A stretch of 64,000 bases of DNA from Actinomycetota bacterium. Lineage in GTDB: Bacteria; Actinomycetota; Actinomycetes; S36-B12. The translations under genes were made by a program, and so were the position numbers. Below, piece by piece: positions 48,023 through 63,011 of this stretch. The stretch is taken from assembly GCA_046046455.1 (NCBI GenBank), contig JBJOJS010000090.1, positions 10,718-74,717 of the forward strand, in the 5' to 3' direction. The notes beneath the pieces are model-generated. The model was not told the origin of the DNA and searched no databases. It worked only from the letters and a program-made list of their open reading frames with translations. Numbering within the stretch: position 1 is the stretch's first letter; every line of letters begins with the position of its first letter.

Positions 48023-49374
48023 GCCCTGGCTGCATCCAGGAGCGCCTCGCGCTCGTGGATGGTCGTGCGATCCCGCTCACGGGTCGCACCCAGAGCCCGC
48101 TCGGCGGCATCGATTCGCCGCCAGCCCGGCACGTCCACAACCACGACCTGCGCCAGCGCTTCGTCAACCGATCCCGGTTGCGGCATCGAGGCGGTCCACG
48201 TCTGCGGGTCCGCGAGGTCCTCGAGCAGACAGGAGATCGTCTGCACGGCGTCCTTCTTGTTGGTCCCGATGATGCCGGTGGGCCCACGCTTGATCCAGCC
48301 GGCGACGTAGAGACCTGGAATCGGATCCTCCCCGTCGAGCACGCGCCCCTCGCGATTGGGGATGACGTTGCGACGGTCGTCGAAGGGCACCCCCTCGATG
48401 GCAGTGCCGCGATAGCCGACGCTGCGGATCACGCCGTCGACGGGGATGACGTGCGTCTCCCCCGTGCCCGAAGCTTGGCCCTCCTCATCGAGCACCGTGG
48501 TTTCGACCACGAGTGCCTCGACACGATCCGTGCCCAGGATCTCGACGGGACGGCAGCGGAAATGCAGGTGGATCGTCCGAGCACGCCCGTCATCGACGTG
48601 CGATGCCCAGCCCTCGATGACCGCCACATTGCGGGCGACGGCCTTGTCCTCCGCGATCGACCGCTGACTGGCCGGATCATCGATCTCGCCGCCTTCAGCG
48701 ATGAGCACCTGGGTCTCCTCGAGTTCCCCCAGCTCGCGGAGTTCCTTCGTCGTCCACGTCGCCTGTGCAGGGCCGCGTCGTCCCACGAGGTGCACGTCAC
48801 GGATTCCCGATCCACGCAGGGCGGCGAAGACGTGCTCGGGCATGTCGGTGTGCTCGATCTCGCCGGGCGCCTTCGACAGCACGCGCGTGACGTCGACGGC
48901 GACATTGCCCACCCCGATCACGGCCACACCCCGTGAACCGGAGAGGAAGTCGACAAAGGCGTCTGGTCGGGTATCGGGATGACCGGTGTACCAATTGACG
49001 AAGTCTGTGGCGGCGATGCTGCCCGGCAGGTCCTCGCCCGGGATGCCCAGCGATCGATCGCGAGAGGCTCCGTAGGTGAACACGATCGCGTCGTAGAACT
49101 CGCGGAGCTGATCGAGTGTGAGGTCCCTACCGATCTCGACGTTGCCGAGGAAGCGCACGCTCGGATGGTCAAGCACCTTGTCGAGTGTGTCGCGCACCGA
49201 GCGAATGCTCAGGTGGTCGGGCGCGACGCCGTAGCGCACGAGCCCGAAGGGACTGGGGAGCTTGTCGATGATGTCGACCGACACCGGGATGTCGGACTGT
49301 CCGACGAGGGCGTCTGCGGCATACATGCCTGATGGGCCCGAGCCGATGACGGCGACGCGCAGGGGGCGGGTCAT
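48019..49374 (-). CDS. fprA: FprA/adrenodoxin-reductase-type ferredoxin--NADP(+) reductase
   Basis: VAVIGSGPSGMYAA (FAD) and VAVIGVGNVAVDV (NADP) dinucleotide motifs. Length of 451 aa and overall pattern resemble mycobacterial FprA. Confidence 0.8.
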   Translation of the reverse strand: MTRPLRVAVIGSGPSGMYAADALVGQSDIPVSVDIIDKLPSPFGLVRYGVAPDHLSIRSVRDTLDKVLDHPSVRFLGNVEIGRDLTLDQLREFYDAIVFTYGASRDRSLGIPGEDLPGSIAATDFVNWYTGHPDTRPDAFVDFLSGSRGVAVIGVGNVAVDVTRVLSKAPGEIEHTDMPEHVFAALRGSGIRDVHLVGRRGPAQATWTTKELRELGELEETQVLIAEGGEIDDPASQRSIAEDKAVARNVAVIEGWASHVDDGRARTIHLHFRCRPVEILGTDRVEALVVETTVLDEEGQASGTGETHVIPVDGVIRSVGYRGTAIEGVPFDDRRNVIPNREGRVLDGEDPIPGLYVAGWIKRGPTGIIGTNKKDAVQTISCLLEDLADPQTWTASMPQPGSVDEALAQVVVVDVPGWRRIDAAERALGATRERDRTTIHEREALLDAARA

Positions 49375-49383
49375 GGCGACTCC

Positions 49384-50025
49384 TTAGGTCAGGCCGAGCA
49401 GCTGGCGAGCACGCGCGAACCCAGGTGCGGGATCGACGGGGTCGAGATGCACGCACTGCATCCCCACAGACTCGGCTCCGGCGATATTGACGGGCTGATC
49501 ATCGATAAAGACACACTCCGACGGCTCAACCCCCATGCGCTCAGCCATCAGGAGGTAAGCGCGGGAATCGGGCTTGTGAACGCCGTCGGTCCGGCCATCC
49601 ACCATGTGGTCGAACTCGCGGAGGATCGTCATGCGGTCCAACCAATCCTGGTCGTGGAAGGCGGTCAGGTCGTTGGTGAGGATCCCGACCGACAGGCCCG
49701 CAGCCTTGGCGTCGGTGATGAGTTGCCGCGCGGCAGGGCGAACCAACTCGTCCTCACTGCCCGAGTACAAATGCGCCATGAAGTTGGGCATCTCGGCGGG
49801 TTCGCCGCTCAGAGTCGCGAACTCCTGACACCGGCGCGCCCAGTACTCGCGCTCGTTCATCCCGCCGGACTGGAACACCTGCCAATCGGCATCCGCATCC
49901 GGATCGAAGGGCCCGGTCCAGGCCAAGGTGCCAGGGGCTAACCCCAGAGAGCGCTCTCCGACGGCGCGCAGTTCGAAGGGGGTCAGCAGCACAGGACCGC
50001 CGAAGTCGAAGACGAGAGCGGTCAT
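49384..50025 (-). CDS. HAD-superfamily hydrolase (subfamily IA-like), putative phosphatase
   Basis: ATG 50025 gives MTALVFDFGGPV. Motif I is DxG, with Gly in place of the second Asp. Motif III/IV region is KPD...FIDDQ. Its stop lies 9 nt before the fprA start. Confidence 0.65.
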   Translation of the reverse strand: MTALVFDFGGPVLLTPFELRAVGERSLGLAPGTLAWTGPFDPDADADWQVFQSGGMNEREYWARRCQEFATLSGEPAEMPNFMAHLYSGSEDELVRPAARQLITDAKAAGLSVGILTNDLTAFHDQDWLDRMTILREFDHMVDGRTDGVHKPDSRAYLLMAERMGVEPSECVFIDDQPVNIAGAESVGMQCVHLDPVDPAPGFARARQLLGLT

Positions 50026-50054: not shown

Positions 50055-50348
50055 TCAGTGCTCCTCCTCCGAGATCGTCACCATGTCGTAGCGCACAACA
50101 TCGCCGAACCAGCCGCATTCGCCGCACCAGGTCATGAAGACGCGCTGATCCGCCATCCAGTACTCGGTCGAGATCCCGCCGTGGGTCTCGATGCTGGCCG
50201 CACACATCGGGCAGAACTTCGGACGGTCCAGCAGGTGCTGCTCCGCATCCTTGGCGAACCAGGCACCCGGCGGGGGAAGCCGATGGGGGTCCGGCGGGAG
50301 TTCGCTCAACGCAATCCTCGCCTCACGTGCGACGACGTCATCACGCAC
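50055..50348 (-). CDS. Cys4 zinc-ribbon / rubredoxin-like miniprotein (about 97 aa), start uncertain
   Basis: CPMC and CGEC knuckles 25 residues apart (FCPMCAASIETHGG...TWCGECGWFG). GTG 50348 overlaps the end of the Rieske oxygenase gene (GTGCGTGA). The track start 50471 lies inside that gene. Confidence 0.5.
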   Translation of the reverse strand: MRDDVVAREARIALSELPPDPHRLPPPGAWFAKDAEQHLLDRPKFCPMCAASIETHGGISTEYWMADQRVFMTWCGECGWFGDVVRYDMVTISEEEH

Positions 50349-51600
50349 CCGCGCTGGCTTTCTCGCGGCGGGCCCAGGCATCGGCGTGCAGGTCGAGCAG
50401 ACGCTGCTTCTGGGGGCTGTAGCGCATCGACCCCATGGTGATGAACGCCTCAGCGAATTCGCGCTCGGCACCGAACTTGTCGCGCTCGCAGGGCAGCGGG
50501 ATGATGTCGTGCTTCTCGCGGATGGTGCCCAGGGGGTCCTCGCCGTTGGCGACGCGCTTCATGTTCTCCTTGAACATCTTGCGCAGCATGGCGACGCCCG
50601 CGTCGGAGCGACCGAGGTGCTCCTGCGTGCGATCCGTGACCGGTCCCTGGCTCACCCAGGCCATGATGTCCTGGCCCTCGATGTAGTCGGTGATGAAGCG
50701 GCCCTGGTCATCGCGCCAGAAGTACTCATAGAAGACAGGGCGGTCCTGGGCCTCCCACTCACCCGCATCGGGGGCGTGATTGGAGTAGAAGAGCTTCCAC
50801 GTCGTGGTGTCGTCGATGGGGACACGGATCTGCATCTGATCGATGCCCGCGCCACCCACGCGCATGAAGTACGGGAAGACGAGCGGGTGGCCGACCTTCC
50901 AGTCGTCGTTCTCCTCAGAGCCGCCCTCGAGCACACGGCGCTTGAGGATGCCCCACTCCATCTCCTCGAAGCCCGTGCGCAGGTGCTTCTTCTGGAAGGC
51001 CTTGGGGGCGTCGAATCCCTGGGTCTGGCCCATGAAGTCGAAGTAATAGCCGTGCAGCCACTCGACGTGATGGGGGTCGACAGAGTTCTCCATGATCTGC
51101 AGCCAATTGCACGGAAGCGTGGCGTAGCCGCAGTCCTTGATGCCGTCCATCACGAAGACGTCGAAGCGAGGCAACTCGGGAGCGGGGTCCGGACCGACGT
51201 ACACCCAGATCATGCCGCCCATGACCTCAGCCTTGCCGGCCTTCTGCTTGACGCGATCGCGGAAATTCTGGTTGTCGGCCTCGGCGGGCTGCTCGACGCA
51301 GTTGCCCTCGAAGTCCCACTTCCATCCGTGATATCCGCAGCGAATGCCGTCCTCATGGACGACGCCGTAGGTGAGCGACGCACTCCGATGCGGGCAGTGC
51401 TCGGCGACGATGCCGTACCTGCCTGACTTCGGCGTCTTGAAGAGAGTCCAGTCCTCACTCAGCAGGCGCACTGTCTTGGTCGGCACCGAGTCGAAGTCCT
51501 GCTCGAACGCGATGGGGTACCAGTAGCGGCGCAGCAACTCCCCCATGGGAGTGCCGGGTCCGACCTTGGTGAGTTCTTCGTTCTGCTCGACGGTCAGCAT
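50341..51600 (-). CDS. Rieske non-haem-iron oxygenase, alpha-subunit-only type (phthalate/KshA-like family)
   Basis: Rieske motif CPHRSASLTYGVVHEDGIRCGYH (CxH-x16-CxxH) and mononuclear iron motif NSVDPHHVEWLH (D-x2-H-x4-H). No beta-subunit gene is adjacent. Confidence 0.85.
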   Translation of the reverse strand: MLTVEQNEELTKVGPGTPMGELLRRYWYPIAFEQDFDSVPTKTVRLLSEDWTLFKTPKSGRYGIVAEHCPHRSASLTYGVVHEDGIRCGYHGWKWDFEGNCVEQPAEADNQNFRDRVKQKAGKAEVMGGMIWVYVGPDPAPELPRFDVFVMDGIKDCGYATLPCNWLQIMENSVDPHHVEWLHGYYFDFMGQTQGFDAPKAFQKKHLRTGFEEMEWGILKRRVLEGGSEENDDWKVGHPLVFPYFMRVGGAGIDQMQIRVPIDDTTTWKLFYSNHAPDAGEWEAQDRPVFYEYFWRDDQGRFITDYIEGQDIMAWVSQGPVTDRTQEHLGRSDAGVAMLRKMFKENMKRVANGEDPLGTIREKHDIIPLPCERDKFGAEREFAEAFITMGSMRYSPQKQRLLDLHADAWARREKASAGA

Positions 51601-51769: not shown

Positions 51770-51777
51770 CCGATCGA

Positions 51778-53595
51778 CTACTCGATGACCGTGACGACGC
51801 CGTTGTTGCCATCGACACGCAGGCGTTGGCCCGTCTTGATGTTGGTGGTGGCGAAGCCCGTGCCGGTGACCGCGGGCAGGCCGTACTCACGGCAGACGAT
51901 CGCGGCGTGGCTCATCATGCCGCCCGTGTCGGTGACCGTCGCGAGGATCTTGCCGAAGATCGGCGCCCACGAAGGTGCGGTGAGCGGGGCGACCAGGATC
52001 TCGCCCTGCTGCACCTCTCCGATCTGCTCCGGGGAGAAGATCACGCGCGCAGGACCCTCGACGAGACCAGGCGACGCCGCCATGCCACGGAGCTCCCCTT
52101 CCTTGGCATCACCGCCGCCCAGCCAGGCGCCCACGCTGTCGGACGTGATGCCCCAGAGCATGACCGTGAAGGGTTCGGTGATGACCTCGGGCGGAGCGCC
52201 CAGGGCCGGGACCGGCTTCCACTGACGCAGCGCCTCGCAGATTCCCTTGCGCTTCGCCACGATGGCCGGCCAGCGCCCCGGTCCCGCAGGAGGCTCAGGG
52301 GTCGCCCAGGAGACGTAGTAGTCCCACAGCGCGTCCTCGACCTCAGTGCGCTTGAGGTAGAAGATGTCATTGGGCTCGCTCCAGAACCCTTCCTTGACCA
52401 GGACCTCGCCGAGCTGGCGCATCTTGCGCCAGATCACCGAGTGGCTCCAGTGCTCGACGTAGAAGTTGTGGTTCTCCACATACGGGAAGACCACGCGGGC
52501 CAGTCCGAGCTTGCCCTGGAAGGCCTCGCGATCCTCATCGGTAGCGAGGAGCTCGGAGTACTCCGCCACCACGCGATCACGCTCGGCATGGATTGCGGCC
52601 ATCGGACGGGCGAGGTCCTCCCCCGCCTGAAGCTTGACGATGTAGTCGTTGATGAAGTCGAACGGGATCTCGACGTTCTCGATCCAGATCTTGTCCGAGT
52701 GGTAGAAGCCCGAGCCGGTCGAGAAGTTGAACCATGGCTCGGCCGACTCCTGGAACGAAGCGATCCATGCGCGGCCCGCATCACTGCCCTTGAGGATCTC
52801 GCACGTCGCCTCGACATCTCCCGCGGCGAACGCCTCGGCGATACCGCTCTCCAGCGCCACACGGGCGAGGCGCTTGAGCTCCTCGTCGGGACGGAACAGG
52901 TCCACCTCGACGCCGGCGACCATCTTGGCGATGGCGAGGTCGGGGATACCCGGGAAGGCCTGCTTGCAGAAGCCGAAGAAGTCGAGGTAGGCGGCGTAAC
53001 CGAGGTTGAGGAACTCGAAGTGGTAGTTCCACAGCTTCAGGCCGAGATCGAGCAGCGTGCGGTAGTTCTCCTGGATCTGGTAGCCCGAGCCGAGGCCGGC
53101 GCCGGACTTCACGATCTCATCCGCGTCCTCGATTTCGGGGAGGGGTTCGAAGTTGACCGCCTCGAGTTCCTTCACTAGGTCACGGATCTTGAGCATCCAC
53201 TTGTCGTAGAGGTCGTTCCAGTTCATGAAGTAGAAGCCGGCGCGGTCCATGAAGTTCTCAACGCGCGCCTCGATGGTCGCCGGATCCGCAGGGATCGGCG
53301 TGAGGTAGCCATAGCCATTGAGGATGCGGAAGGCGATGCCGTTGGCCGGCGGCACCTGAAGGTGTCGCGTGTTGTACTGCGACAACGATGCGAGGCCGAA
53401 CTCGAAGAAGGTCGCATCCCAGGGAGTCAGCACCTTGGGCCAGTGAACTCCGTCCTGGAACCAGAAGGTGGAATCCTCGAATTCCCTTCGGGACTCGCTG
53501 AAGAGCGAGGAGTAGACGTACATCTCCTGCCAACCCTCGGCGCCCGCGGGCGTCTCGATGTCGAACGGGCTGGGGAACCGATCGGCCATCTGCAT
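51778..53595 (-). CDS. PEP-utilising-enzyme mobile (phosphohistidine swivel) domain protein; phenylphosphate-synthase alpha-like dikinase subunit
   Basis: 605 aa. The C-terminal approx. 100 aa form the swivel domain with TDTGGMMSHAAIVCREYGLPAV (catalytic His). The N-terminal approx. 480 aa (FPSPFDIETPAGAEGWQEMYVYSSLFSESRREFEDSTFWFQDGVHWP) contain no ATP-grasp and no PEP/pyruvate barrel that I can see. Confidence 0.8.
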   Translation of the reverse strand: MQMADRFPSPFDIETPAGAEGWQEMYVYSSLFSESRREFEDSTFWFQDGVHWPKVLTPWDATFFEFGLASLSQYNTRHLQVPPANGIAFRILNGYGYLTPIPADPATIEARVENFMDRAGFYFMNWNDLYDKWMLKIRDLVKELEAVNFEPLPEIEDADEIVKSGAGLGSGYQIQENYRTLLDLGLKLWNYHFEFLNLGYAAYLDFFGFCKQAFPGIPDLAIAKMVAGVEVDLFRPDEELKRLARVALESGIAEAFAAGDVEATCEILKGSDAGRAWIASFQESAEPWFNFSTGSGFYHSDKIWIENVEIPFDFINDYIVKLQAGEDLARPMAAIHAERDRVVAEYSELLATDEDREAFQGKLGLARVVFPYVENHNFYVEHWSHSVIWRKMRQLGEVLVKEGFWSEPNDIFYLKRTEVEDALWDYYVSWATPEPPAGPGRWPAIVAKRKGICEALRQWKPVPALGAPPEVITEPFTVMLWGITSDSVGAWLGGGDAKEGELRGMAASPGLVEGPARVIFSPEQIGEVQQGEILVAPLTAPSWAPIFGKILATVTDTGGMMSHAAIVCREYGLPAVTGTGFATTNIKTGQRLRVDGNNGVVTVIE

Positions 53596-53664
53596 TTCCT
53601 CTCGTGTGTTCGTGTCCGGGGAGCACGAAGCGCTGGACCTTGCTGTGGGTGGTCTGATCTTTCA

Positions 53665-54744
53665 CTAGTCCTTGCGGGCGTACAGCGGATTCATCAATGT
53701 CGAGACGATGCTCGCCATGGGGTTCTTGTCTGCGGCACCCGCAACCGACTGGCGGGGCTTCTTGCTCCACACGGTCTCGGGGCGGGCCTGGAGGAGGATG
53801 ACGTTCTCCCCGTCGGCGAGGTCGGCGTCGACGGCCCACTCGATGTCCTGCGGGCAGCCGTAATGTCGTTCGGCGGTCTTCGCGAGGGCGGCAATAGCCT
53901 TTAGCTGCGCATCGGTGAGGCACGGGGTGTCAGCCCGCTCGTCATCCGTCTCGACCTTCTCCACGGTGTCGTGGTCGGTGAGCTTGTACTCGTGGGCCTT
54001 GTGGCTGATCTCGCGCTTGCTCACCTCGAGCATCACCTTGTCGACGAGGAAGTTGTCGGGCGTGATCTCGCCGGAGACGACCCCCTCACCGAATCCCCAG
54101 GCCGCATCGATGGCCACCTGGGACCGGTCACCGTTAGCGGGGTTGAGCGTGAAGGCGACACCTGCGGAGATCGGACGCACCATCTTCTGGATGACGACAG
54201 CCATCTCGACCGAGCGATGCTCGTATCCCATCTCCACCCGGTAGCAGGTGGCGCGGTCGGTGAAGAGGCTCGCCCAGCAGCGACGTACGGCGTCGACGAC
54301 AGCATCCCCACCGCGGATCCAGAGGTAGGTGTCGTGCTCGCCGGCGAAGGATGCGTCCGGAGAGTCCTCCGAGGTCGCGGAGGAGCGCACCGCCACCGGC
54401 AGGTCCTCGACATCGCACTTGCGCGACAGCTCGGCATAGTCGTGGCGAATCTGCTTCTCGACGTCCGCCGGGAGCGGCATCGTGCGGATGACGTCGCGGA
54501 TCTCCGAGCACACCGTGCTGACCTGGGCAGTGTCGGCGATGTCGAGTCCGTGCAGCAGCCGCGCGAGCGTGGCATCCAGATCAGCAGCATCGTGGGCCGC
54601 GCGGTAGCCCGCGGTGGTGACGGCGAAGCCCGGAGGGACAGGCAGTCCCGCTCCCGTCATCTCGCCGAGGCTCGCAGCCTTGCCGCCGACCTCGCCCTTG
54701 AGTCCGGGCCAGTAGCCCTCGAACCACATCGTCACGCTGCTCAT
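53665..54744 (-). CDS. PEP-synthase N-terminal (PPDK_N, ATP-grasp) domain protein; phenylphosphate-synthase beta-like dikinase subunit
   Basis: 359 aa from ATG 54744. GGKAASLGEMTGAGLPVPPGF, VAVRSSATSEDSPDASFAGEHDTY and PQDIEWAV are PPDK_N signatures. The start overlaps the phosphatase stop as ATGA. Confidence 0.85.
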   Translation of the reverse strand: MSSVTMWFEGYWPGLKGEVGGKAASLGEMTGAGLPVPPGFAVTTAGYRAAHDAADLDATLARLLHGLDIADTAQVSTVCSEIRDVIRTMPLPADVEKQIRHDYAELSRKCDVEDLPVAVRSSATSEDSPDASFAGEHDTYLWIRGGDAVVDAVRRCWASLFTDRATCYRVEMGYEHRSVEMAVVIQKMVRPISAGVAFTLNPANGDRSQVAIDAAWGFGEGVVSGEITPDNFLVDKVMLEVSKREISHKAHEYKLTDHDTVEKVETDDERADTPCLTDAQLKAIAALAKTAERHYGCPQDIEWAVDADLADGENVILLQARPETVWSKKPRQSVAGAADKNPMASIVSTLMNPLYARKD

Positions 54745-55850
54745 GAGGACTCCCCCCGACGGCTCAACGGTAGGGCGCGACCCTCGAGCCCCGCCCACCA
54801 GTCGGGGAGGCCGTCGAAGTCGGGCACCGAGACTTCCTGCACCCGATTGCGATAGAGGACGAGGGCGCTTTCACCGCCTTCGAGCAGGCGCACCCGGACG
54901 AATTCGGTGTTGAAGGGCTCACCGGGGTCGTAGCCGAGCGCCCAGGTGGCGAAGGCGCGAATCGGACCGGAGTGGGTTGCGACGATCACCGACTGCCCGG
55001 GTGTCTCGTCGTGGATGCGCATGAGTCCGGCCCAGAAGCGTCGGACCGCCGCCACGGGCGGCTCGAAGGTGAGCATGGGCATGGTGAGCCAGTGGGTGAT
55101 GGGATCACCGCCCCCCTGCTGGATGCCCCAGAAGCGGTCGACCTCCACCAGCCACGTGGGGCGTCCACCCAGCCCGATGCGCTCGTACTTCTCCATCTCC
55201 GAGTGGTAGAGCCGGAAGGCCTGGGTGACGTCGCGGAAGCCGTCGGGCGTCATCACCTGGAAGTTGCGGAACTCCTCGTACGCCGTGACCTCACCGACGG
55301 TGGCCTCGCGCCCGAAGAGCACGAGCTCATCGAGCAGGCCCTTGCGGATGCCTTCGGCCGTCTGACGCGCGCGATTGGTGTCGGCGCAGGCCATGGTCAC
55401 GTGATGGCCGGTCATGACGCGGCGCGCGAGCTCCTTGCCGCGTCGGTGCGCCTGCCAGGAGCCCAGCGGCGTGAGCCCGGACTCCGTGGAGTAGCCCTGC
55501 GTCTCGCCGTGCCGCACGAAGTAGACATCCGTGACAGCGCCCTTCGTCTGGTCCTTGCGCTCGGGGACGATCTCCTTGGTGCGGGTCACCTCGGCCCAGG
55601 CGCGGGTGGCTCCGACGTCGGCGCCCTCCCAGAGCGGCACCGGGGAGTCGAGCCCGGTCTCACCACTGCGACGGTCGCGAAAGCGCCGAAGGTAGAGCGG
55701 GGTCTCATCCTCGGGCTGCGCCGGGTCGGCGACCGAGGGGCGCTGCCCGCGGGACTCGCGGTCGAGGTACTTCTGCAGGTAGGCGGGTGCGTCCGGCCGC
55801 TCCGTGCGCGGCAGCGCGACGGGCGTGACATGGGGCTCGGTCATCGTCAT
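54741..55850 (-). CDS. Histidine phosphatase superfamily protein with an N-terminal extension of about 105 aa
   Basis: RHG motif at residue 113 (VYFVRHGETQGY) and second His region VATHSGPIRAF. The N-terminal region is Pro/Arg/Glu-rich with no recognisable domain. AAGGAG lies in the 9-nt gap upstream. Confidence 0.8.
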   Translation of the reverse strand: MTMTEPHVTPVALPRTERPDAPAYLQKYLDRESRGQRPSVADPAQPEDETPLYLRRFRDRRSGETGLDSPVPLWEGADVGATRAWAEVTRTKEIVPERKDQTKGAVTDVYFVRHGETQGYSTESGLTPLGSWQAHRRGKELARRVMTGHHVTMACADTNRARQTAEGIRKGLLDELVLFGREATVGEVTAYEEFRNFQVMTPDGFRDVTQAFRLYHSEMEKYERIGLGGRPTWLVEVDRFWGIQQGGGDPITHWLTMPMLTFEPPVAAVRRFWAGLMRIHDETPGQSVIVATHSGPIRAFATWALGYDPGEPFNTEFVRVRLLEGGESALVLYRNRVQEVSVPDFDGLPDWWAGLEGRALPLSRRGESS

Positions 55851-55859
55851 ATCCGCTCC

Positions 55860-56771
55860 TTAACTGTGCACCGTGAGGAACCGCTGATTCACGACGCCGT
55901 CGTAGTAGAACAGCGCCCTGCCCATCTCGCCCTCGGTCCACGTGATGGGCGGATCATCGGGGTCCGACCAGTAGCCGCCTGTGAAGACCTCGTTGCGGTT
56001 GCCCGCAGGATCGAAGAAGTACACGCAGTGCCCGCGTGTGGCACCGTGCCGTGTGGGGTTGGTCTCGATCCGCACGCCGTGGTACGCCAGCACATCCGAG
56101 GCATTGCGGATGTCGTTCCAATCGTCCACCCAGTAGGCGAAGTGGTGCAGCCCGCCATCCGGTCCGGTCACAAGCGCGATGTCGTGGGAGGAGTGGGAGA
56201 CCTCGAGCCACGTAGCGATCTGGAATCCATCGTCCCCGACCACCTGCTCGGTGAGGTGGAAGTCAAGCACGTCCTGAAGGAACGACGTCATGCCGTTGAC
56301 ATCCTCGACGGTGATGAAGATGTGGTCGAGCCGGGGCGGCGCGATGCCCACCAGGCCGAGAGGCTTGGGCGGCGGGTTCGTGAGCGGGAGGAGGTTGCCG
56401 ACCTGCTCCATGCCGTAGATCAACTCCATCTGGTGGCCCGAGGGCGTCTCGAAGCGGATGACGGAGCCGCCACCCACGCCAACCTCGGCTCCCTGGAGGC
56501 GCTTCACGGCGATGCCCGCGTCCTCGAGGCGCGCGGCGTAGAAGTCGAGGTCCTCGGGGCTCTCGACCTTCCAGCCCATATGGGCGAGCCCGTAGTTGGG
56601 CGCGTAGGCGAGGACCAGCGAGTGGTGCTGGTGCTCGTCCCAGCACTTCAGGTATACGCGCTCGGGCTCCCGAGCGGTCTCCACAAGGCCCAGCACCTCG
56701 GTGTAGTACGCGGTCGCGAGCTCGAGATCGGGGACCTTGATCTCCACATGGGACAGACGCAGGATGCTCAT
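55860..56771 (-). CDS. Type I extradiol dioxygenase (catechol 2,3-dioxygenase family), copy 1
   Basis: 303 aa from ATG 56771 (MSILRLSHVEIKV). Two VOC modules, HHFAYW and FFDPAGNRNEVF motifs. Shares 1 nt (TGATG) with the upstream paralogue's stop. Confidence 0.88.
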   Translation of the reverse strand: MSILRLSHVEIKVPDLELATAYYTEVLGLVETAREPERVYLKCWDEHQHHSLVLAYAPNYGLAHMGWKVESPEDLDFYAARLEDAGIAVKRLQGAEVGVGGGSVIRFETPSGHQMELIYGMEQVGNLLPLTNPPPKPLGLVGIAPPRLDHIFITVEDVNGMTSFLQDVLDFHLTEQVVGDDGFQIATWLEVSHSSHDIALVTGPDGGLHHFAYWVDDWNDIRNASDVLAYHGVRIETNPTRHGATRGHCVYFFDPAGNRNEVFTGGYWSDPDDPPITWTEGEMGRALFYYDGVVNQRFLTVHS

Positions 56772-57679
56772 CAGGTGTGCACCTTCATGAATCGATCGTT
56801 GAGCTCGCCCTCGTAGTAGAAGACAGCCCGTCCAATGTTGTCCTCGGTCCACGTGATGGTCGGGAAGTCCGGGTCCGGACGGTAACCGCCGGTGAAGACC
56901 TCATTGCGCGTGCCGAGCGGGTCGAAGAAGTAGATGGTGTTGCCGCGCGTGATGCCGTGGCGCGTCGGACCGACGTCGATCTGGATGCCGTTGTAGGCCA
57001 GGATGTCCGCGCTCTTGCGGACGTGATCCCAGTCGTCGAGCCAGTACGCGAAGTGATGCAGGCCGCCGTTGGGTCCGGACACGATCGCGAGGTCGTGGGG
57101 CGAGTGCGAGCGCTCCATCCACGTGGCGGCCTGATGGCCGTCCCCGTCGAGCAGCTGCTCGGTCACCCGGAAGCCGAGGACATCCGTGAAGAACTTGGTC
57201 GACTCGCCGACCTCCTCAGCGGTGACGAGGATGTGATCCATCCTGGGAGGCGCGATGCCGCGCAGCCCCTCGACGAAGGGTGCGGGGTTGAGTGAACCCG
57301 TGGCGCGACCGATCTTCTCGACGTCGTGCACGAGCTCCATCACCTGACCCGACGGAGTCTCGAAGCGAATGGACTCGCCCTGGCCGATCGACGCGCCCTT
57401 GCTCACGCGCTCGACGGGCAGGCCGTATCGGCCCACGGCGTTCTCGAGGTCGGAGAGGTCGTCTTCGCGCAGGACCTTGAAGGACATCAGGTCGAAGCCG
57501 ACGCGCGGCGCGTAGGAGATACGCAGCGAATGGTGGTCGACCTCGTCCCAGCACTTCAGGTAGACCGAATTCTCATCGCGCTCAACCTCGAGCATGCCGA
57601 TGACCTCGGTGTAGTACGCCGCTGCCAGGTCGATATCCGTCACCGTGATGTCGACGTGCGACAAGCGCAGGATTCCCAT
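56771..57679 (-). CDS. Type I extradiol dioxygenase (catechol 2,3-dioxygenase family), copy 2
   Basis: 302 aa from ATG 57679 (MGILRLSHVDITV), preceded by GGGAGGAG. Same motifs as copy 1 (HHFAYW, FFDPLGTRNEVF). The 555-aa track ORF extension upstream is non-coding by my reading. Confidence 0.88.
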   Translation of the reverse strand: MGILRLSHVDITVTDIDLAAAYYTEVIGMLEVERDENSVYLKCWDEVDHHSLRISYAPRVGFDLMSFKVLREDDLSDLENAVGRYGLPVERVSKGASIGQGESIRFETPSGQVMELVHDVEKIGRATGSLNPAPFVEGLRGIAPPRMDHILVTAEEVGESTKFFTDVLGFRVTEQLLDGDGHQAATWMERSHSPHDLAIVSGPNGGLHHFAYWLDDWDHVRKSADILAYNGIQIDVGPTRHGITRGNTIYFFDPLGTRNEVFTGGYRPDPDFPTITWTEDNIGRAVFYYEGELNDRFMKVHT

Positions 57680-57732
57680 CGTCGCTCCTCCCGGCCGCGA
57701 GGCCTCTCGGGTCATCCGAAACCTAGGGCTCC

Positions 57733-57811: not shown

Positions 57812-58456
57812 ATGCGCCAGGCCATGGCGGACTACGTCCGCTCGCTGCACCAGGCCTACCTCGATGCCGTGGCGACACTCCCTCCAGCCGAGCGTGCGCG
57901 ACTGCCCCTCATCGACGCCGGCCGGATCACGGTGGCCGCTGTCGGCGTGCGCATGCTGCACGTCATCGGCACGGTCGAGACGCTCCCGCCACCGCAAGGA
58001 CCCGAGGTCGAGATCGATGACTCCATCGACGATCTCGCGTGGAGCCTGCGATTCTTCGATCCCGTCATCGCACCGCCCCTCGGCATCATCGATGAATCCC
58101 ACGGGCCGCAGTACGACGAGGTACGTCGCGCACTCGGAATCCGGACCGTCGTCTATCACCTCGCCGTCCCACCCGGTGGCAGCCTCACAGCGCATCACGC
58201 ACTGCATGCAGGCACCGGACTCGCGCATGCGCATGCAGCAGCCGCACGCGACTTCGACGCCCTGCGCGCTCACGCCCCTGGGCGTGAGGCCTTGGTCGAT
58301 GAGATGCAGGGCGCCAGCATCGCCGGCCTCACGCGCGCCCAGGTAACCCTCGCGCTCGCGCTTGCCCCGGGACTCACGGGCGTGACCGTGGAGCCACCGA
58401 GCGATCCCGCCGAGGTCCGCCGCACGCTGCTCCAGCACCTGAGGAACCCCGCATGA
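57812..58456 (+). CDS. Hypothetical 214-aa protein translationally coupled to the IclR regulator
   Basis: Strong G/C preference at codon position 3 across the frame. The stop overlaps the IclR start as ATGA. Start is ambiguous, with in-frame ATG 57743, ATG 57764, GTG 57794, ATG 57812 and ATG 57824. No motif recognised. Confidence 0.55.
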   Translation: MRQAMADYVRSLHQAYLDAVATLPPAERARLPLIDAGRITVAAVGVRMLHVIGTVETLPPPQGPEVEIDDSIDDLAWSLRFFDPVIAPPLGIIDESHGPQYDEVRRALGIRTVVYHLAVPPGGSLTAHHALHAGTGLAHAHAAAARDFDALRAHAPGREALVDEMQGASIAGLTRAQVTLALALAPGLTGVTVEPPSDPAEVRRTLLQHLRNPA

Positions 58457-59277
58457 CCGAGACGCCCGCCCGCCGCCAGCACTCGACGCTGTCCAGCGTG
58501 CGCAACGCCGCGCGCCTGCTCAAGGAGTTCGGGCGCGGGGATCGCGACATCGGAGTGACCGAGCTCTCCCGACGTCTCGGGATCGGCAAGAGCACCGCGC
58601 ATCGACTCCTGAGCACGCTCGCCGAGGAGAGGCTGCTCGAGCAGGACCCCGACACGGGTGCCTATCGACTCGGCCTCGCGATGTACGAGTTGGGGGCATC
58701 GGTTGCCCTCCACAACGACCTCCACGAGGCCTGCTCCCCCGTCATCGACCAGTTGCGCAATGCCACCCGCGAGACCGTCCAGGTCGCTGTGCTCGACGGT
58801 CGCGAGGTCGTCTACGTCGAACGCCGCGAGAGTCCGCAGACGCTTCGCCTTTTCGGTCGCGTCGGGCATCGCAATGACGCGCACTGCACCAGCACCGGCA
58901 AGCTGCTTCTCGCGTACCTGCCCGAGGACCAATTGGATGCCCTGCTCCGCGGATGGCGGCTCGAGCGCAGGACGCCGTACACGATCACCGATCCTCGGGC
59001 ACTGCGCAGCGCCCTCGTGGAGATCCGCCGACAAGGCTGGGCGGAGAACGTCAATGAATCCGAACTCGGTGCCGCCTCCATCGCTGCTCCCGTGCGCAAT
59101 GACCGCGGTGAGGTGATCGCTGCTCTCTCGATCGTCGGACCGGTGCAGCGACTGGGCAGCGACTCACTGCGCCGCTTCGCCCGACCGGCGGTCGATGCTG
59201 CCATGGCCGTCAGCCGCCGACTCGGATACCGCGACCCCCGCGCCCCACGCCGATCAGCAGAAGAGGGATCCCCGTGA
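58453..59277 (+). CDS. IclR-family transcriptional regulator
   Basis: N-terminal wHTH (VTELSRRLGIGKSTAHRLLSTL) and a C-terminal IclR effector domain (GAASIAAPVRNDRGEVIAALSIVGP). Confidence 0.9.
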   Translation: MTETPARRQHSTLSSVRNAARLLKEFGRGDRDIGVTELSRRLGIGKSTAHRLLSTLAEERLLEQDPDTGAYRLGLAMYELGASVALHNDLHEACSPVIDQLRNATRETVQVAVLDGREVVYVERRESPQTLRLFGRVGHRNDAHCTSTGKLLLAYLPEDQLDALLRGWRLERRTPYTITDPRALRSALVEIRRQGWAENVNESELGAASIAAPVRNDRGEVIAALSIVGPVQRLGSDSLRRFARPAVDAAMAVSRRLGYRDPRAPRRSAEEGSP

Positions 59278-60065
59278 CCAGACCCGATGCGGATCAGATC
59301 CGCGAGATGTCCAGTGCCCTTCTCGCCGCCCGACGCGCACGCGTTCCGATTGCACCCCTCACCGATCGATTCCCCGGGATGACCGTCGAGGACGCCTACG
59401 CCGTGCAGCAGGGCCTTGTCGAGGGCCTGCTCTCCGACGGCGACTCGATCATCGGCTACAAGCTCGGCCTCACGAGCCGTCCGATGCAAGAGATGCTCGG
59501 CGTCGACCAGCCCGACTATGCACCCGTGCTCGGATCCACCGTCTACCCCGACGGAGGCGAAGTGCCCTGCGATCGCTACATCGCCCCGCGCATGGAGGCC
59601 GAGATCTGCGTCGTCCTCGATGCACCGCTATCCGGCCCGCACTGCACGGCGGCTGAGGCGTGGGCAGCGACCCGCGGTCTCATCGCCGCACTCGAGATCG
59701 TCGATAGTCGCATCGCGGATTGGAAGATCAAGCTGGCGGACACCGTCTCTGACCTCGCCTCCAACGGTGCCGTGGCCTTCGGGAGCCGAGTGGTCCCCCT
59801 GGACGACTTCGATCCCGCACTCATCGGCATGGTCTTCACACGCAACGGCGAGCTCGTCGCCACCGGCGCGGGGGCAGCAGCACTGGGTGGTCCCATCGAT
59901 GCCGTCGCCTGGCTGGCCAACACCCTGTTTCCGCTCGGGGTCACCCTCCCCGCCGGCGCCATCATCATGACGGGTGCCCTGCATGCGGCAGTGCCCTTCG
60001 AGAAGGGCGACGTCTTCCGCGCCGACTTCGATCGACTTGGCCCCATCACCCTGCGCACGATCTGA
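59274..60065 (+). CDS. 2-oxopent-4-enoate (2-keto-4-pentenoate) hydratase, DmpE/XylJ/MhpD-like
   Basis: FAH-fold hydratase/decarboxylase family (GYKLGLTS, EAEI, GAIIMTGAL). The hydratase rather than decarboxylase role is assigned from its position before the dmpF/G-like genes. Confidence 0.7.
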   Translation: MTRPDADQIREMSSALLAARRARVPIAPLTDRFPGMTVEDAYAVQQGLVEGLLSDGDSIIGYKLGLTSRPMQEMLGVDQPDYAPVLGSTVYPDGGEVPCDRYIAPRMEAEICVVLDAPLSGPHCTAAEAWAATRGLIAALEIVDSRIADWKIKLADTVSDLASNGAVAFGSRVVPLDDFDPALIGMVFTRNGELVATGAGAAALGGPIDAVAWLANTLFPLGVTLPAGAIIMTGALHAAVPFEKGDVFRADFDRLGPITLRTI

Positions 60066-60095
60066 TCGCACGACCCGACAGGAAGGGATCACGGC

Positions 60096-61004
60096 ATGCC
60101 TTTGCGATGTGCCATCGTCGGCTCCGGCAATATCGGGACCGATCTCATGGTCAAGATGATGCGCAGCGATCGGCTGCAGCTCACGGCACTGGTCGGCATC
60201 GACCCGGCGTCCGACGGCCTGGCGCGCGCCAAGGCCCTGGGGTTGGACGCTCCGCATGATGGTCCGGACTGGATCCTGGAGCACTCCGATGACATCGACA
60301 TGGTCTTCGACGCCACCAGCGCCTACGTGCATGTGCGATATGCCAAGAAGTACGAGGAAGCTGGGATCACGGCGATCGATCTGACTCCCGCCGCCCGTGG
60401 ACCCAAGGTGATCGCCGCGGTGAACCTCACAGAGCATCTCGACGCGCCCAACATCAACATGGTGACCTGCGGCGGCCAGGCCACCACTCCGATGGTCTAC
60501 GCGATCAAGCGGGCGGTGCCGTCACTCCCCTATGCCGAGATGGTGTCCACGGTGTCGTCGAAGTCCGCGGGTCCGGGGACGCGGCAGAACATCGATGAGT
60601 TCACCAAGACCACGTCAACGGCGCTCCGTGAGATCGGTGGCGCGGAGACCAGCAAGGCGATCATCATCCTCAACCCCGCCGACCCGCCCATCATCATGCG
60701 CAACACGGTCTTCGGGGCGCTGCCCGAGGGCACCGACCACGACGCCGTCCTGGAGTCGGTCTACGCCATGGAGAAGGATGTCGCACAGTACGTACCGGGC
60801 TACCGCCTGAAGAATCCGCCCGTGATCGAGGAGGGGCCGTACAACACGCCCGGCGGCGTCGTCCCACACCGGGTCGTCGTCCTGCTCGAGGTCGAAGGCG
60901 CCGGCGACTATCTGCCTACCTACGCGGGAAATCTTGACATCATGACCGCCGCTGCCATGCGCGTCGGCGAGGCCATCGCGGAGCACCGAGGAGTCACAGC
61001 ATGA
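60096..61004 (+). CDS. Acetaldehyde dehydrogenase (acetylating), DmpF/MhpF-like
   Basis: [15 protein letters not shown] motif and catalytic Cys in [10 protein letters not shown]. 4-nt overlap with the aldolase gene. Confidence 0.92.
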
Positions 61005-62029
61005 GCACCACCGACTACCGCCTCATCGACTCGACCCTGCGGGACGGATCGCACGCGATCAGCCACCAGTACTACGCCGAAGACGTCATCAAGATCGTCG
61101 AGGGCCTCGATCGGGCCGGCGTGCAGGTCATCGAAATCGCCCACGGTGACGGACTCGGCGGCTCCAGCTTCAACTACGGCTTCTCCGCCGTCCCCGAGAA
61201 GGAGCTCATCGCGAAGGCGTGCGAGACCGCACAGCAGGCGCAGATCGCCTGCCTCATGCTGCCGGGCATCGGCCTGGCTGACGACCTGCGCGAGGTCCGC
61301 GAGCTTGGTGTGTCCGTCGCGCGCATCGCCGTCCACTGCACCGAGGCCGACATCACCGAGCAGCACCTCAAGGTGGCCAAGGAACTCGGCATGGAGGCCA
61401 TCGGTTTCCTCATGATGGCCCATATGAACTCCCCCGAGGGCCTCGTCGAGCAGGCACTGCTCATGCAGTCCTACGGCGCTGACACGATCTATATCGCCGA
61501 CTCCGCCGGCGCCATGACGGTCGACGACGTGCGCCGCCGAGTCAACGCACTCGTCAAGGCCCTCGACATCCCCCTGGGCGTGCACGCCCACAACAATCTC
61601 GCGATGGCGGTCGCCAACTCCATCGCCGCCTACGAAGAGGGCGCGAAGAACCTTGACGGCACCTCGGCGGGACTCGGTGCCGGCGCAGGCAACTGCCCCA
61701 CCGAGATCCTGGCCGCTGTCTCCACGAAGTACGGGATCGAGACCGGTGTCGATCCCCTCGTGCTCATGGATGTCGCCGAGGAGGTCGTGCGTCCGATCAT
61801 GCCCCGCCAGCAGGTCATCGACCGCGCGGGACTGCTGCTCGGCTATGCCGGCGTCTACGGCAGCTTCCTCCTCCATGCCGAGCGCGCCGCCGACCGCTAC
61901 GGCGTCCCCGTCTCCGAGATCCTGCTCGAGCTCGGTCGACGCCAGGTCGTCGGCGGCCAGGAGGACATGATCATCGATGTCGCACTCGAACTCGCCCGCA
62001 AGCATGCCGAAGCGGAGGTGACCGCATGA
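61001..62029 (+). CDS. 4-hydroxy-2-oxovalerate aldolase, DmpG/MhpE-like
   Basis: [10 protein letters not shown] and [10 protein letters not shown]...HAHNNL motifs of the HMGL-like aldolase. Confidence 0.92.
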
Positions 62030-62805: not shown

Positions 62806-63011
62806 TCCAGGTCACCATGGTCGAGGGCCGCACCCTCGAGCAGAAGCACGCACTCATCCGCAACCTCAGCACCGCCATGGCCGACACCCTCGAGGTGCCG
62901 CTCGAGCGCATCCGCGTCGCCATCTACGAGATCACCGCCGATGAGTGGGGCATCGGCGGTGAGCCCTTCTCAGTCGCGCGCCCCGGCGGCGTCGCACCAC
63001 CGGCCTCGTGA
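62796..63011 (+). CDS. 4-oxalocrotonate tautomerase family enzyme
   Basis: 71 aa beginning MPLIQVTMVEGRT (catalytic Pro-1 after Met removal) with a beta-alpha-beta pattern. Confidence 0.85.
   Translation: MPLIQVTMVEGRTLEQKHALIRNLSTAMADTLEVPLERIRVAIYEITADEWGIGGEPFSVARPGGVAPPAS

What the first reader, a model, noticed from the sequence alone, without database searches (positions are those of the whole stretch)
54741..55850. Histidine phosphatase with an unassigned 105-aa N-terminal extension, translationally coupled (ATGA) to the dikinase
Seen: the RHG catalytic motif appears only at residue 113 (VYFVRHGETQGY), and the second His region is VATHSGPIRAF. Residues 1-105 are Pro/Arg/Glu/Asp-rich with no motif I recognise. 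The stop codon overlaps the dikinase ATP-grasp start. Inference: a kinase and a phosphatase made in fixed stoichiometry suggests that a phosphorylated pathway intermediate is later dephosphorylated. That is the logic of a transient phosphate protecting group, as reported for the Hpe pathway as I recall it. A phosphomutase role is the alternative.
Basis: partly seen in the sequence, partly recalled or inferred. Interest (0 to 1): 0.55.

Follow-up and report, generated by a model that had tools for sequence, protein, structure and literature searches.

The report
Extended histidine phosphatase beside catechol dioxygenases
This is a real, conserved phosphatase with a flexible 105-residue head; it belongs to a widespread, apparently undescribed actinobacterial gene cluster that seems to phosphorylate a phenol, oxidise it, remove the phosphate and then break the ring.

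Summary
Window 54741-55850 (minus strand) encodes a 369-aa branch-1 histidine phosphatase: RHG at 113-115, HSG at 293-295. It has a Shine-Dalgarno-backed start and an ATGA overlap with the dikinase ATP-grasp subunit.

The 105-residue extension is genuine. It is present across relatives at 39-98% identity. It has three conserved islands, two of them copies of an amphipathic P-x-Y-L-x-R-[YF] helix; P22 and Y24 are invariant. The linkers are variable and AlphaFold confidence is low. It matches no Pfam family.

The family is an isolated clade (252 representatives among 1.84 billion proteins), so it is not a generic PGM or CobC enzyme. In 164 loci it always sits in one cluster type: extradiol dioxygenase(s), this phosphatase, a two-component phenol-type dikinase, a phthalate-dioxygenase-like Rieske oxygenase, a HAD hydrolase and the lower meta-cleavage pathway. 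The invariant neighbour is the dioxygenase upstream (median gap 8 nt; two fusions exist), not the dikinase. Extension-less relatives sit with the dikinase and HAD genes in ARO microcompartment loci.

Best reading (about 0.5): it is an aryl-phosphate hydrolase that unmasks a catechol for ring cleavage, and the extension is a docking region. The Hpe-like logic is partly supported; HpeD itself is a HAD enzyme.

The parts
54741..55850 (-). Histidine phosphatase gene (369 aa), branch 1 of the histidine phosphatase superfamily
   Evidence: ORF. Pfam PF00300 scores 58.5 bits. AF2 core pLDDT is 90-98. Foldseek finds the His-phosphatase fold.
55533..55850 (-). Coding region of the N-terminal extension (residues 1-106): three conserved islands in variable, low-confidence linkers
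   Evidence: Column identity is 0.96, 0.92 and 0.87 in the islands against 0.35-0.46 in the linkers. pLDDT is 40-63 except for helix 23-33, at about 77. No Pfam hit.
55776..55814 (-). Motif 1, LPRTERPDAPAYL (residues 13-25). It leads into amphipathic helix 23-33. P22 and Y24 are invariant.
55671..55700 (-). Motif 2, PLYLRRFRDR (residues 51-60). It is a second copy of the P-x-Y-L-x-R-[YF] helix, net charge +4.
   Evidence: Helix 52-62 appears in both AF2 models.
55560..55595 (-). Motif 3, AEVTRTKEIVPE (residues 86-97). Found almost only in relatives at >=60% identity (110 of 115, against 2 of 49 more distant loci).
55506..55514 (-). R113-H114-G115, the catalytic RHG motif (nucleophilic His). 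Invariant.
54972..54974 (-). H293 of THSGPIR, the second catalytic His. Invariant.
55856..55862 (-). TAAGGAG: the stop codon of the upstream dioxygenase overlapping the Shine-Dalgarno of the phosphatase gene. The intergenic spacer is 9 nt.
   Evidence: The median dioxygenase-to-phosphatase gap is 8 nt in 144 loci.
54741..54744 (-). ATGA stop/start overlap with the dikinase ATP-grasp subunit
   Evidence: Conserved in 60 of 80 loci.
53665..54744 (-). Dikinase ATP-grasp subunit (HpeI/CreI/PpsB-like, PPDK_N domain)
   Evidence: Pfam E=1.7e-113. PDB hits to PEP synthase and rifampin phosphotransferase ATP-grasp domains.
51778..53595 (-). Dikinase 605-aa subunit (HpeH/CreH/PpsA-like) with the swivel phospho-His domain. 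Motif GGMMSHAAIV.
   Evidence: Pfam PEP-utilizers. NCBIfam PRK08296 scores 823.8 bits against a cut-off of 650.
50341..51600 (-). Rieske oxygenase; closest solved relatives are in the phthalate dioxygenase family
   Evidence: Pfam Rieske and LigXa_C. PDB 7fjl and 7fhr at E=1e-47 and 3e-45.
50055..50300 (-). Conserved small 4-Cys ORF (CPMC...CGEC) between the Rieske and HAD genes. Start not fixed.
   Evidence: Present between Rieske and HAD in 66 of 67 loci. No Pfam hit.
49384..50025 (-). HAD-family hydrolase (TIGR02247-like), motif I FDFGG
   Evidence: Syntenic.
48019..49374 (-). FAD/NAD(P)-binding reductase
55860..56771 (-). Catechol 2,3-dioxygenase paralogue a, immediately upstream of the phosphatase
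   Evidence: TIGR03211 scores 362 bits against a cut-off of 320. PDB 5znh and 1mpy. Fe ligands and catalytic residues look intact by eye.
56771..57679 (-). Catechol 2,3-dioxygenase paralogue b (about 54% identical to a)
   Evidence: TIGR03211 scores 379 bits. The tandem pair is conserved.
58453..59277 (+). Divergent IclR-family regulator
59274..63011 (+). Lower meta-cleavage pathway: hydratase, acetaldehyde dehydrogenase (acylating), aldolase, 4-oxalocrotonate decarboxylase-like enzyme and 4-OT tautomerase
63008..63400 (+). Rieske-type ferredoxin, the likely electron carrier for the Rieske oxygenase
   Evidence: Conserved in 64 sequences searched, the window among them.

Best explanation
The gene encodes a catalytically competent branch-1 histidine phosphatase. 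It is a dedicated part of a phenol-phosphorylating catechol meta-cleavage cluster.

Proposed route (inferred):
1. The two-component dikinase converts a phenolic substrate into its aryl phosphate (ATP -> AMP + Pi).
2. The phthalate-dioxygenase-like Rieske oxygenase, served by its ferredoxin and reductase, oxygenates the anionic aryl phosphate next to the ester.
3. The histidine phosphatase hydrolyses the resulting 2-hydroxyaryl phosphate through a phospho-His114 intermediate. It releases the catechol directly beside the two catechol 2,3-dioxygenases.
4. The lower pathway converts the ring-cleavage product to pyruvate and acetyl-CoA.

The 105-residue extension is an intrinsically flexible docking region. 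It carries two amphipathic P-x-Y-L-x-R-[YF] helices and a third motif. It most likely tethers the phosphatase to a partner or to itself, so that the reactive catechol is unmasked only where it is consumed and a kinase/phosphatase futile cycle is avoided. The partner is most plausibly the dioxygenase.

Shown: the gene, the extension, the catalytic motifs, the fold, the synteny and the couplings. Inferred: the substrate, the order of steps and the role of the extension.
For: - R113, H114, R160 and H293 are invariant in 77 sequences spanning 39-98% identity.
- The core is a confident His-phosphatase fold.
- The clade is isolated: 252 representatives at E<=1e-3 among 1.84 billion.
- In 164 loci the phosphatase lies with the same gene set. 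An extradiol dioxygenase is directly upstream in 148 of the 149 loci where an upstream neighbour could be read; the other 15 reach a contig end or show no hit.
- The dioxygenase-to-phosphatase gap has a median of 8 nt in 144 loci and never exceeds 150 nt.
- Two independent fusions join a dioxygenase-like domain to the phosphatase core in place of the extension: P0148 and P0271.
- Translational coupling to the dikinase occurs in 72 of 80 close loci.
- The dikinase, HAD and phosphatase genes recur beside unrelated LigB-type extradiol dioxygenases in actinobacterial loci that carry BMC shell genes (one further such locus, shows HAD and phosphatase but no dikinase on its 8.4-kb contig). The phosphatase thus follows ring-cleaving dioxygenases of two different folds.
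- The Rieske enzyme's nearest solved relatives act on anionic aromatics (phthalate dioxygenase family).
- Precedent: Hpe and Cre pathways phosphorylate phenols and dephosphorylate a later intermediate (PMC9618137, PMC12167813).
- Extension: the islands are 87-96% conserved, the linkers 35-46%. P22 and Y24 are invariant. pLDDT is low apart from helix 23-33. The motif is unique to this protein within the cluster.
Against: - A second candidate phosphatase, the HAD hydrolase, is just as conserved in the cluster. It is adjacent to the histidine phosphatase in the distant subfamilies. In the only characterised analogue cited here the pathway phosphatase is a HAD enzyme (PMC9618137).
- No substrate is known, and no biochemical data exist for any member.
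- The proton-donor residue could not be mapped.
- Extension-less relatives exist, so the extension is not needed for the basic activity.
- The number of helix motifs does not track the number of dioxygenase genes cleanly.
- The dioxygenase-like domain in the fusions lacks the Glu ligand and the catalytic His and Tyr by eye. The fusion argument therefore supports association, not catalytic channelling.
- A 1,2-dioxygenation of an aryl phosphate could eliminate phosphate spontaneously, which would make a phosphatase unnecessary.
Confidence: 0.5

Rival explanations
1. The HAD hydrolase is the pathway aryl-phosphate phosphatase, as HpeD is. The histidine phosphatase instead acts on protein or controls the dikinase. 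For example, it could remove the phosphoryl or pyrophosphoryl group from the swivel-domain histidine of the 605-aa subunit, as SixA does on phospho-His proteins. Alternatively it could hydrolyse wrongly made aryl phosphates as a safety valve. The extension would then dock it onto the dikinase.
For: The ATGA coupling to the ATP-grasp subunit is conserved in 60 of 80 close loci. A HAD hydrolase is conserved in the cluster. HpeD is a HAD enzyme (PMC9618137). From general knowledge, the superfamily includes the protein phosphatases SixA and PGAM5; PGAM5 is among the structural hits.
Against: In the more distant subfamilies the phosphatase is not adjacent to the dikinase, yet it keeps the extension and the dioxygenase neighbour. 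The fusions are to a dioxygenase-like domain, not to a dikinase subunit. The swivel motif GGMMSH lacks the regulatory Thr of PEP synthase (motif as given in PMC12167813). The large, conserved, aromatic-rich cap insert suggests a small-molecule pocket; this is inference.
Confidence: 0.2
2. The protein is a phosphomutase or phosphotransferase rather than a hydrolase. Using its phospho-His intermediate, it would move the phosphoryl group between neighbouring hydroxyls. Alternatively it would pass the group from the product back to fresh phenolic substrate, saving ATP.
For: dPGM-type mutases share the fold and catalytic set. HpeH alone can transfer phosphate between phenols, so such chemistry is feasible in these pathways (PMC12167813). 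Two phosphatase-like genes always co-occur, which suggests different roles.
Against: There is no NCBIfam mutase equivalog hit. Identity to mutases is only 13-18%. The best structural matches are mainly phosphatases (PspA, PhoE, RosC, HFP, GpgP). No chemical need for a mutase step is evident before extradiol cleavage.
Confidence: 0.1
3. The protein is an ordinary housekeeping phosphoglycerate mutase or CobC-type phosphatase that happens to lie here, with an over-extended start call.
For: Source annotations name relatives 'broad specificity phosphatase PhoE' or 'histidine phosphatase family protein'.
Against: The extension is conserved in frame across relatives from 39 to 98% identity, with invariant P22 and Y24 and a Shine-Dalgarno at the first ATG. 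The clade is isolated. There is no curated-family hit. Linkage to the catabolic cluster is strict in 164 loci.
Confidence: 0.02

Closest known systems
Hpe/Acv hydroxyphenylethanone pathway (HpeHI dikinase, HpeCBA carboxylase, HpeD phosphatase)
   Same: Both have a two-component PpsAB/CreHI/HpeHI-type dikinase encoded together with a phosphatase. The logic of phosphorylating a phenolic OH, transforming the phosphate ester and then dephosphorylating it is shared (PMC9618137, PMC12167813).
   Different: There is no biotin carboxylase, CoA ligase or hydrolase here. A Rieske oxygenase and a catechol meta-cleavage pathway take their place. HpeD is a NagD-like HAD enzyme; the protein studied here is a histidine phosphatase with an N-terminal extension, and a different (TIGR02247-like) HAD is also present.
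Cre pathway of Corynebacterium glutamicum (CreHI, CreJEF, CreD phosphohydrolase)
   Same: The pathway is aerobic. The phenol is phosphorylated first, an oxygenase then acts on the aryl phosphate, and a phosphohydrolase removes the phosphate later (as summarised in PMC12167813 and PMC7764795).
   Different: The Cre oxygenase is a P450 acting on the methyl group, and the product goes to 4-hydroxybenzoate rather than to a catechol for extradiol cleavage. The protein family of CreD could not be checked because the paper is not held.
Branch-1 histidine phosphatases with solved structures (PspA 4ij6, PhoE 1h2e, RosC 8s6q, CobC 6e4b, GpgP 4pz9, dPGM 1e59)
   Same: The fold is shared, along with the RHG...R...H catalytic set.
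   Different: Identity is only 13-22%, and no sequence-level PDB hit exists. This protein has a conserved aromatic-rich cap insert of about 80 residues and a 105-residue N-terminal extension. It also has Tyr where the canonical RHGExxxN motif has Asn; that comparison is by eye and from general knowledge.
PGAM5 N-terminal multimerisation motif (general knowledge)
   Same: In both, a short conserved motif in a flexible N-terminal region of a histidine-phosphatase-fold enzyme plausibly controls assembly or activity.
   Different: There is no WDxNWD motif here. The motifs are basic amphipathic P-x-Y-L-x-R-[YF] helices. No evidence on oligomerisation is available.
ARO bacterial microcompartment loci of Actinobacteria (PMC8217296, PMC10470539)
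   Same: Extension-less relatives of this phosphatase, at about 35% identity, occur in loci of LigB-type dioxygenase plus BMC shell genes. In three of the four loci seen they sit together with the homologous dikinase (44-46% identity) and HAD genes; the fourth shows HAD and phosphatase only.
   Different: The window and loci L001-L164 have no shell genes. The dioxygenase is of the type I VOC fold, a Rieske oxygenase is present, and the phosphatase carries the extension.

Membership tests
Histidine phosphatase superfamily, branch 1 (PF00300) | Profile match above the curated threshold | tested here: met
   58.5 bits against a cut-off of 21.7, E=9.2e-16.
Histidine phosphatase superfamily, branch 1 (PF00300) | RHG motif with the nucleophilic His, a second Arg and a second His | tested here: met
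   R113, H114, G115, R160 and H293 are invariant in 77 sequences. H293 aligns with GpmA His184.
Histidine phosphatase superfamily, branch 1 (PF00300) | Alpha/beta fold of the superfamily | tested here: met
   Foldseek probability is 1.00 to PspA, PhoE, RosC, dPGM and PGAM5. Core pLDDT is 90-98.
Histidine phosphatase superfamily, branch 1 (PF00300) | Acidic proton donor (Glu after strand 3) | tested here: inconclusive
   E193 is >=90% conserved only among close relatives and varies in distant ones. Other invariant acidic residues (D207, D249, E263, E316) could not be placed without coordinates.
Cofactor-dependent phosphoglycerate mutase / CobC alpha-ribazole phosphatase | Match to the curated equivalog models | tested here: not met
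   No NCBIfam family at E<=1e-5. No PDB sequence hit with the family profile.
Cofactor-dependent phosphoglycerate mutase / CobC alpha-ribazole phosphatase | Orthologues unlinked to the dikinase, in a housekeeping or cobalamin context | tested here: not met
   All loci long enough to judge place it in the aromatic-catabolic cluster.
Hpe pathway | Two-component phenolic dikinase (HpeH-like and HpeI-like) | tested here: met
   PPDK_N subunit E=1.7e-113. The 605-aa subunit matches PRK08296 at 823.8 bits. Substrate not tested.
Hpe pathway | Biotin-dependent carboxylase HpeCBA acting on the aryl phosphate | tested here: not met
   None of the genes from 48019 to 63400 carries a carboxylase domain.
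Hpe pathway | NagD-type HAD phosphatase (HpeD) as the dephosphorylating enzyme | tested here: not met
   The protein studied is a His_Phos_1 member. The cluster's HAD best matches TIGR02247/HAD-IA, not NagD. HpeD's family is given in PMC9618137.
ARO bacterial microcompartment locus | BMC-H and BMC-P shell genes with a LigB-type dioxygenase | tested here: not met
   tblastn with shell and LigB proteins from L165 finds nothing in the window or in L001-L164.
BMC encapsulation peptide | Terminal amphipathic helix on a poorly conserved linker, in a locus with shell proteins | tested here: not met
   The helix-plus-linker architecture is present, but no shell genes are. The relatives that are BMC-linked lack the extension.
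PGAM5-type multimerisation motif | WDxNWD motif N-terminal to the phosphatase domain | tested here: not met
   The motif is absent from residues 1-106 (sequence). Oligomeric state is not testable here.

The most novel reading that the evidence does not exclude
The cluster encodes an undescribed aerobic route in which phenolics are trapped as aryl phosphates and oxygenated while phosphate-masked. They are unmasked to catechols only at the ring-cleaving dioxygenase, by a histidine phosphatase held there through its two-helix N-terminal tether or, in some lineages, by fusion to a dead dioxygenase domain. In Pseudonocardiales the same dikinase/HAD/phosphatase module sits in the ARO microcompartment locus. 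This would imply that the long-sought entry substrate of that organelle is a phosphorylated aromatic compound.
Probability: 0.3. Interest if true: 0.8.

Novelty: new variant of a known kind. Interest (0 to 1): 0.62.

Why it matters
Phosphorylation-initiated aerobic catabolism of phenolics is known from only a few systems (Cre, Hpe/Acv). Why cells spend two ATP equivalents on it is an open question stated in PMC12167813.

This phosphatase marks a much more widespread module. More than 460 species-level actinobacterial genomes carry relatives, among them freshwater MAGs labelled Candidatus Nanopelagicales, plus Nocardioides and Streptosporangiaceae. The module links a phenol-type dikinase to catechol meta-cleavage through a different phosphatase family.

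It gives a concrete, testable candidate for the unmasking step. It also offers a docking element that could explain how a kinase and a phosphatase coexist without a futile cycle. The presence of the same module in ARO microcompartment loci suggests a route to the unknown precursor of that organelle (PMC10470539). Cultured carriers exist, so the idea is directly testable.

Tried and rejected
- PDB sequence searches with the family profile and with the single protein gave no true hit. The TAL-effector hits are summed weak repeats matching residues 268-302 and are spurious.
- Pfam scans of the extension alone and of the cap insert alone gave nothing at E<=10.
- NCBIfam gave nothing for the phosphatase.
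- I tested whether the number of P-x-Y-L helix motifs tracks the number of upstream dioxygenase genes. Loci with two genes have two motifs in 98 of 100 cases, but single-gene loci split 6 to 6, so the correlation is not clean and is confounded by phylogeny.
- The encapsulation-peptide idea was rejected. There are no shell genes in any extension-bearing locus, and the BMC-linked relatives lack the extension.
- A deeper MSA improved the AF2 core (mean pLDDT 70 -> 80) but left most of the extension at low confidence.
- hhalign against a typed E. coli GpmA sequence aligned only the second-His motif.
- The Cre pathway paper, needed for the family of CreD, is not held.
- Literature searches for this cluster found no description in the held library.
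- I considered a pyrogallol-type substrate to explain the lack of a semialdehyde dehydrogenase or hydrolase in the window. This is weakened because group B loci carry an aldehyde dehydrogenase next to the dioxygenase.
Full report
**1. The observation**

The ORF lies on the minus strand at 54741..55850 and encodes 369 aa. The RHG motif is at residues 113-115 (VYFVRHGETQGY) and the second His motif is at 290-300 (VATHSGPIRAF). Pfam His_Phos_1 matches from residue 109 onward: 58.5 bits against a cut-off of 21.7. Residues 1-106 are rich in R, P, E, T and D and hit no Pfam family even at E<=10.

The start is sound. The mRNA reads TAA-GGAG-CGGAT-ATG, so an AAGGAG Shine-Dalgarno overlaps the stop of the upstream gene, 5 nt before the first ATG. 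The stop TGA overlaps the ATG of the next gene (ATGA at 54741-54744). That gene is a PPDK_N ATP-grasp protein.

**2. The extension is real and structured as motifs in linkers**

More than 1,000 homologues were found. The 120 best are 340-407 aa long and cover 90-100% of the query.

In a 23-sequence alignment at 63-84% identity, three islands are nearly invariant:
- LPRTERPDAPAYL (residues 13-25), column identity 0.96.
- PLYLRRFRxR (residues 51-60), column identity 0.92.
- AEVTRTKEIVPE (residues 86-97), column identity 0.87.

The segments between them are 0.35-0.46 identical and full of indels. When relatives down to 39% identity are added, P22 and Y24 stay invariant.

Islands 1 and 2 are two copies of one motif, P-x-Y-[LIV]-x-[RK]-[YF], which starts an amphipathic basic helix. 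AlphaFold2 predicts exactly these two helices (23-33 and 52-62). Confidence is low for the whole extension (pLDDT 34-62 with 23 sequences). With 77 sequences only helix 23-33 rises to about 77, while the core reaches 90-98. This is the signature of a flexible region that folds on a partner.

Across 144 loci the distance from the start to the xRHG motif is 96-160 residues in every subfamily.

**3. The core**

R113, H114, R160 and H293 are invariant. H293 aligns with His184 of E. coli GpmA.

Foldseek places the model among branch-1 histidine phosphatases and mutases at 13-22% identity: PspA, PhoE, RosC, HFP, CobC, GpgP, dPGM and PGAM5. By sequence there is no PDB hit; the TAL-effector hits are repeat artefacts. 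There is also no NCBIfam family.

A full HMMER scan of 1.84 billion representatives finds only 252 relatives at E<=1e-3. This is therefore an isolated clade within a huge superfamily. A conserved, aromatic-rich insert of about 80 residues (roughly 185-265) forms the cap. It too has no Pfam match.

**4. Genomic context**

The window's operon on the minus strand contains, in order:
- Catechol 2,3-dioxygenase b.
- Catechol 2,3-dioxygenase a.
- This phosphatase.
- The dikinase ATP-grasp subunit.
- The 605-aa dikinase subunit with the swivel His domain.
- A Rieske oxygenase.
- A small 4-Cys ORF.
- A HAD hydrolase.
- An FAD reductase.

Divergently lie an IclR regulator, the lower meta-cleavage genes, a 4-OT tautomerase and a Rieske ferredoxin.

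Both dioxygenases pass the curated TIGR03211 threshold. The Rieske enzyme's nearest solved relatives are phthalate-family dioxygenases. The 605-aa subunit matches PRK08296. By its architecture, swivel-His motif and size I equate this with the PpsA/CreH/HpeH family described in PMC12167813.

Eighty genome loci at 61-98% identity all show the same order. They come from MAGs labelled Candidatus Nanopelagicales, Nocardioides, Streptosporangiaceae and Pseudonocardiales, and from Longivirga aurantiaca. At least 463 stretches of the species-representative genome collection encode a relative.

**5. What is conserved and what is not**

The stop/start overlap with the dikinase occurs in 72 of 80 close loci, 60 of them with a 4-nt overlap. 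A metagenome scan seeded with distant relatives shows other arrangements:
- At 48-59% identity the downstream gene is the dikinase after a 113-227 nt gap, or the Rieske gene.
- Below 48% identity the order is dioxygenase, phosphatase, HAD, with the dikinase elsewhere in the cluster.

In contrast, an extradiol dioxygenase lies immediately upstream in 148 of the 149 loci where an upstream neighbour could be read. The median spacer is 8 nt and never exceeds 150 nt. The family-wide partner is the dioxygenase.

**6. Relatives without the extension**

Proteins of 210-276 aa at 34-46% identity cover only residues ~105-354.

Two of the relatives (P0148, P0271) are fusions. A dioxygenase-like VOC domain replaces the extension. 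By eye that domain has lost the Glu ligand and the catalytic His and Tyr, so it looks like a non-catalytic subunit mimic.

In Kibdelosporangium, Amycolatopsis and Kutzneria the short form lies in this order: LigB, LigB, BMC, BMC, EutN, dikinase, dikinase, HAD, phosphatase, aldehyde dehydrogenase and so on. One further such locus shows HAD and phosphatase but no dikinase on its 8.4-kb contig. These loci match the published description of ARO microcompartment loci (PMC8217296, PMC10470539). The dikinase there is 44-46% identical to the window's, the HAD 28% and the phosphatase 35%.

The words kinase, phosphatase and phosphoryl do not occur in the main text of the mBio ARO paper, which states that the precursor or true substrate is unknown. 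No shell genes occur in the window or in any extension-bearing locus.

**7. Mechanism**

Shown:
- A competent-looking histidine phosphatase with a conserved flexible head.
- It is obligately encoded with a phenol-type dikinase, a HAD hydrolase and an extradiol dioxygenase.

Inferred:
- The dikinase makes an aryl phosphate, as HpeHI, CreHI and PpsAB do (PMC12167813).
- The Rieske oxygenase acts on that anion.
- The histidine phosphatase removes the phosphate from the ortho-hydroxylated product and hands a catechol to the dioxygenases.
- The extension docks the enzyme to a partner or to itself. This confines unmasking of a reactive catechol and prevents a futile cycle with the co-expressed kinase.

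I put this at about 0.5.

The main rival (0.2) is that the HAD, like HpeD (PMC9618137), is the pathway phosphatase and the histidine phosphatase acts on the dikinase or on stray products. A mutase or phosphotransferase role (0.1) cannot be excluded. The generic-PGM reading is refuted. Why two phosphatase-type genes always co-occur remains unexplained.

**8. Comparison and novelty**

The logic resembles the Hpe and Cre pathways, but membership of Hpe fails on the carboxylase and on the phosphatase family. The protein is a member of the histidine phosphatase superfamily, but of no curated subfamily. The extension resembles, by analogy only, the PGAM5 multimerisation motif and BMC encapsulation peptides; both membership tests fail.

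No description of this cluster was found in the held literature. I rate it a new variant of a known kind, with interest 0.62.

Noticed in passing
window 50055-50300 (-): A small ORF with CPMC...CGEC (4 Cys, zinc-ribbon or rubredoxin-like spacing) lies between the Rieske oxygenase and HAD genes. It is conserved at that position in 66 of 67 loci at 33-96% identity and has no Pfam family. It is probably an unannotated member of the cluster.
   Followed up: partly
L165 3948-10714; L167 3557-10672; L172 2769-9633; L170 1000-5673: Loci with BMC shell genes and a LigB-type dioxygenase (matching the published ARO type) in Kibdelosporangium, Amycolatopsis and Kutzneria carry the homologous two-component dikinase, HAD and an extension-less histidine phosphatase between the shell genes and the aldehyde dehydrogenase. 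The metagenomic contig L170 shows HAD and phosphatase but no dikinase. The words kinase and phosphatase are absent from the main text of the mBio ARO paper, which calls the true substrate unknown.
   Followed up: partly
L082 328-1956 (P0148); P0271: Two fusion proteins carry an N-terminal catechol-dioxygenase-like VOC domain joined to the phosphatase core. By eye the VOC domain lacks the Glu iron ligand and the catalytic His and Tyr, so it looks like a pseudo-enzyme domain.
   Followed up: partly
window 55860-57679 (-): Two catechol 2,3-dioxygenase paralogues, about 54% identical, are always in tandem with overlapping stop and start in relatives above about 48% identity. Both pass TIGR03211 and keep the ligand and catalytic residues. 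More distant subfamilies have a single copy. The reason for the pair is unknown.
   Followed up: partly
window 59274-63011 and the whole window; L106 7389-8816: The window has a 4-OT tautomerase and a 4-oxalocrotonate decarboxylase-like gene. No 2-hydroxymuconic semialdehyde dehydrogenase or hydrolase was found among the window ORFs scanned. Distant-subfamily loci such as L106 carry an aldehyde dehydrogenase directly upstream of the dioxygenase.
   Followed up: partly
window 49384-50025 (-); L165 9309-10004: The cluster's HAD hydrolase has motif I FDFGG (LDLGG in Kibdelosporangium). It therefore lacks the second Asp (Asp+2) that typical HAD phosphatases use as general acid/base.
   Followed up: no
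window 63008-63914 (+): A Rieske-type ferredoxin directly follows the tautomerase (conserved in 64 sequences searched) and is followed by a beta-carbonic-anhydrase-like gene (conserved in 28).
   Followed up: partly
L084 2-1921 (-): An extension-less phosphatase lies divergently next to a dikinase in which the ATP-grasp and substrate/swivel parts are fused in one ORF, unlike the split enzyme of the window.
   Followed up: no
L013, L042, L061, L069-L071 (record titles): Several MAG records carrying this high-GC actinobacterial cluster are titled Bifidobacterium breve, Bifidobacteriaceae, Actinomyces or Rubrivirga. These are probably taxonomy or binning errors in the source records.
   Followed up: no
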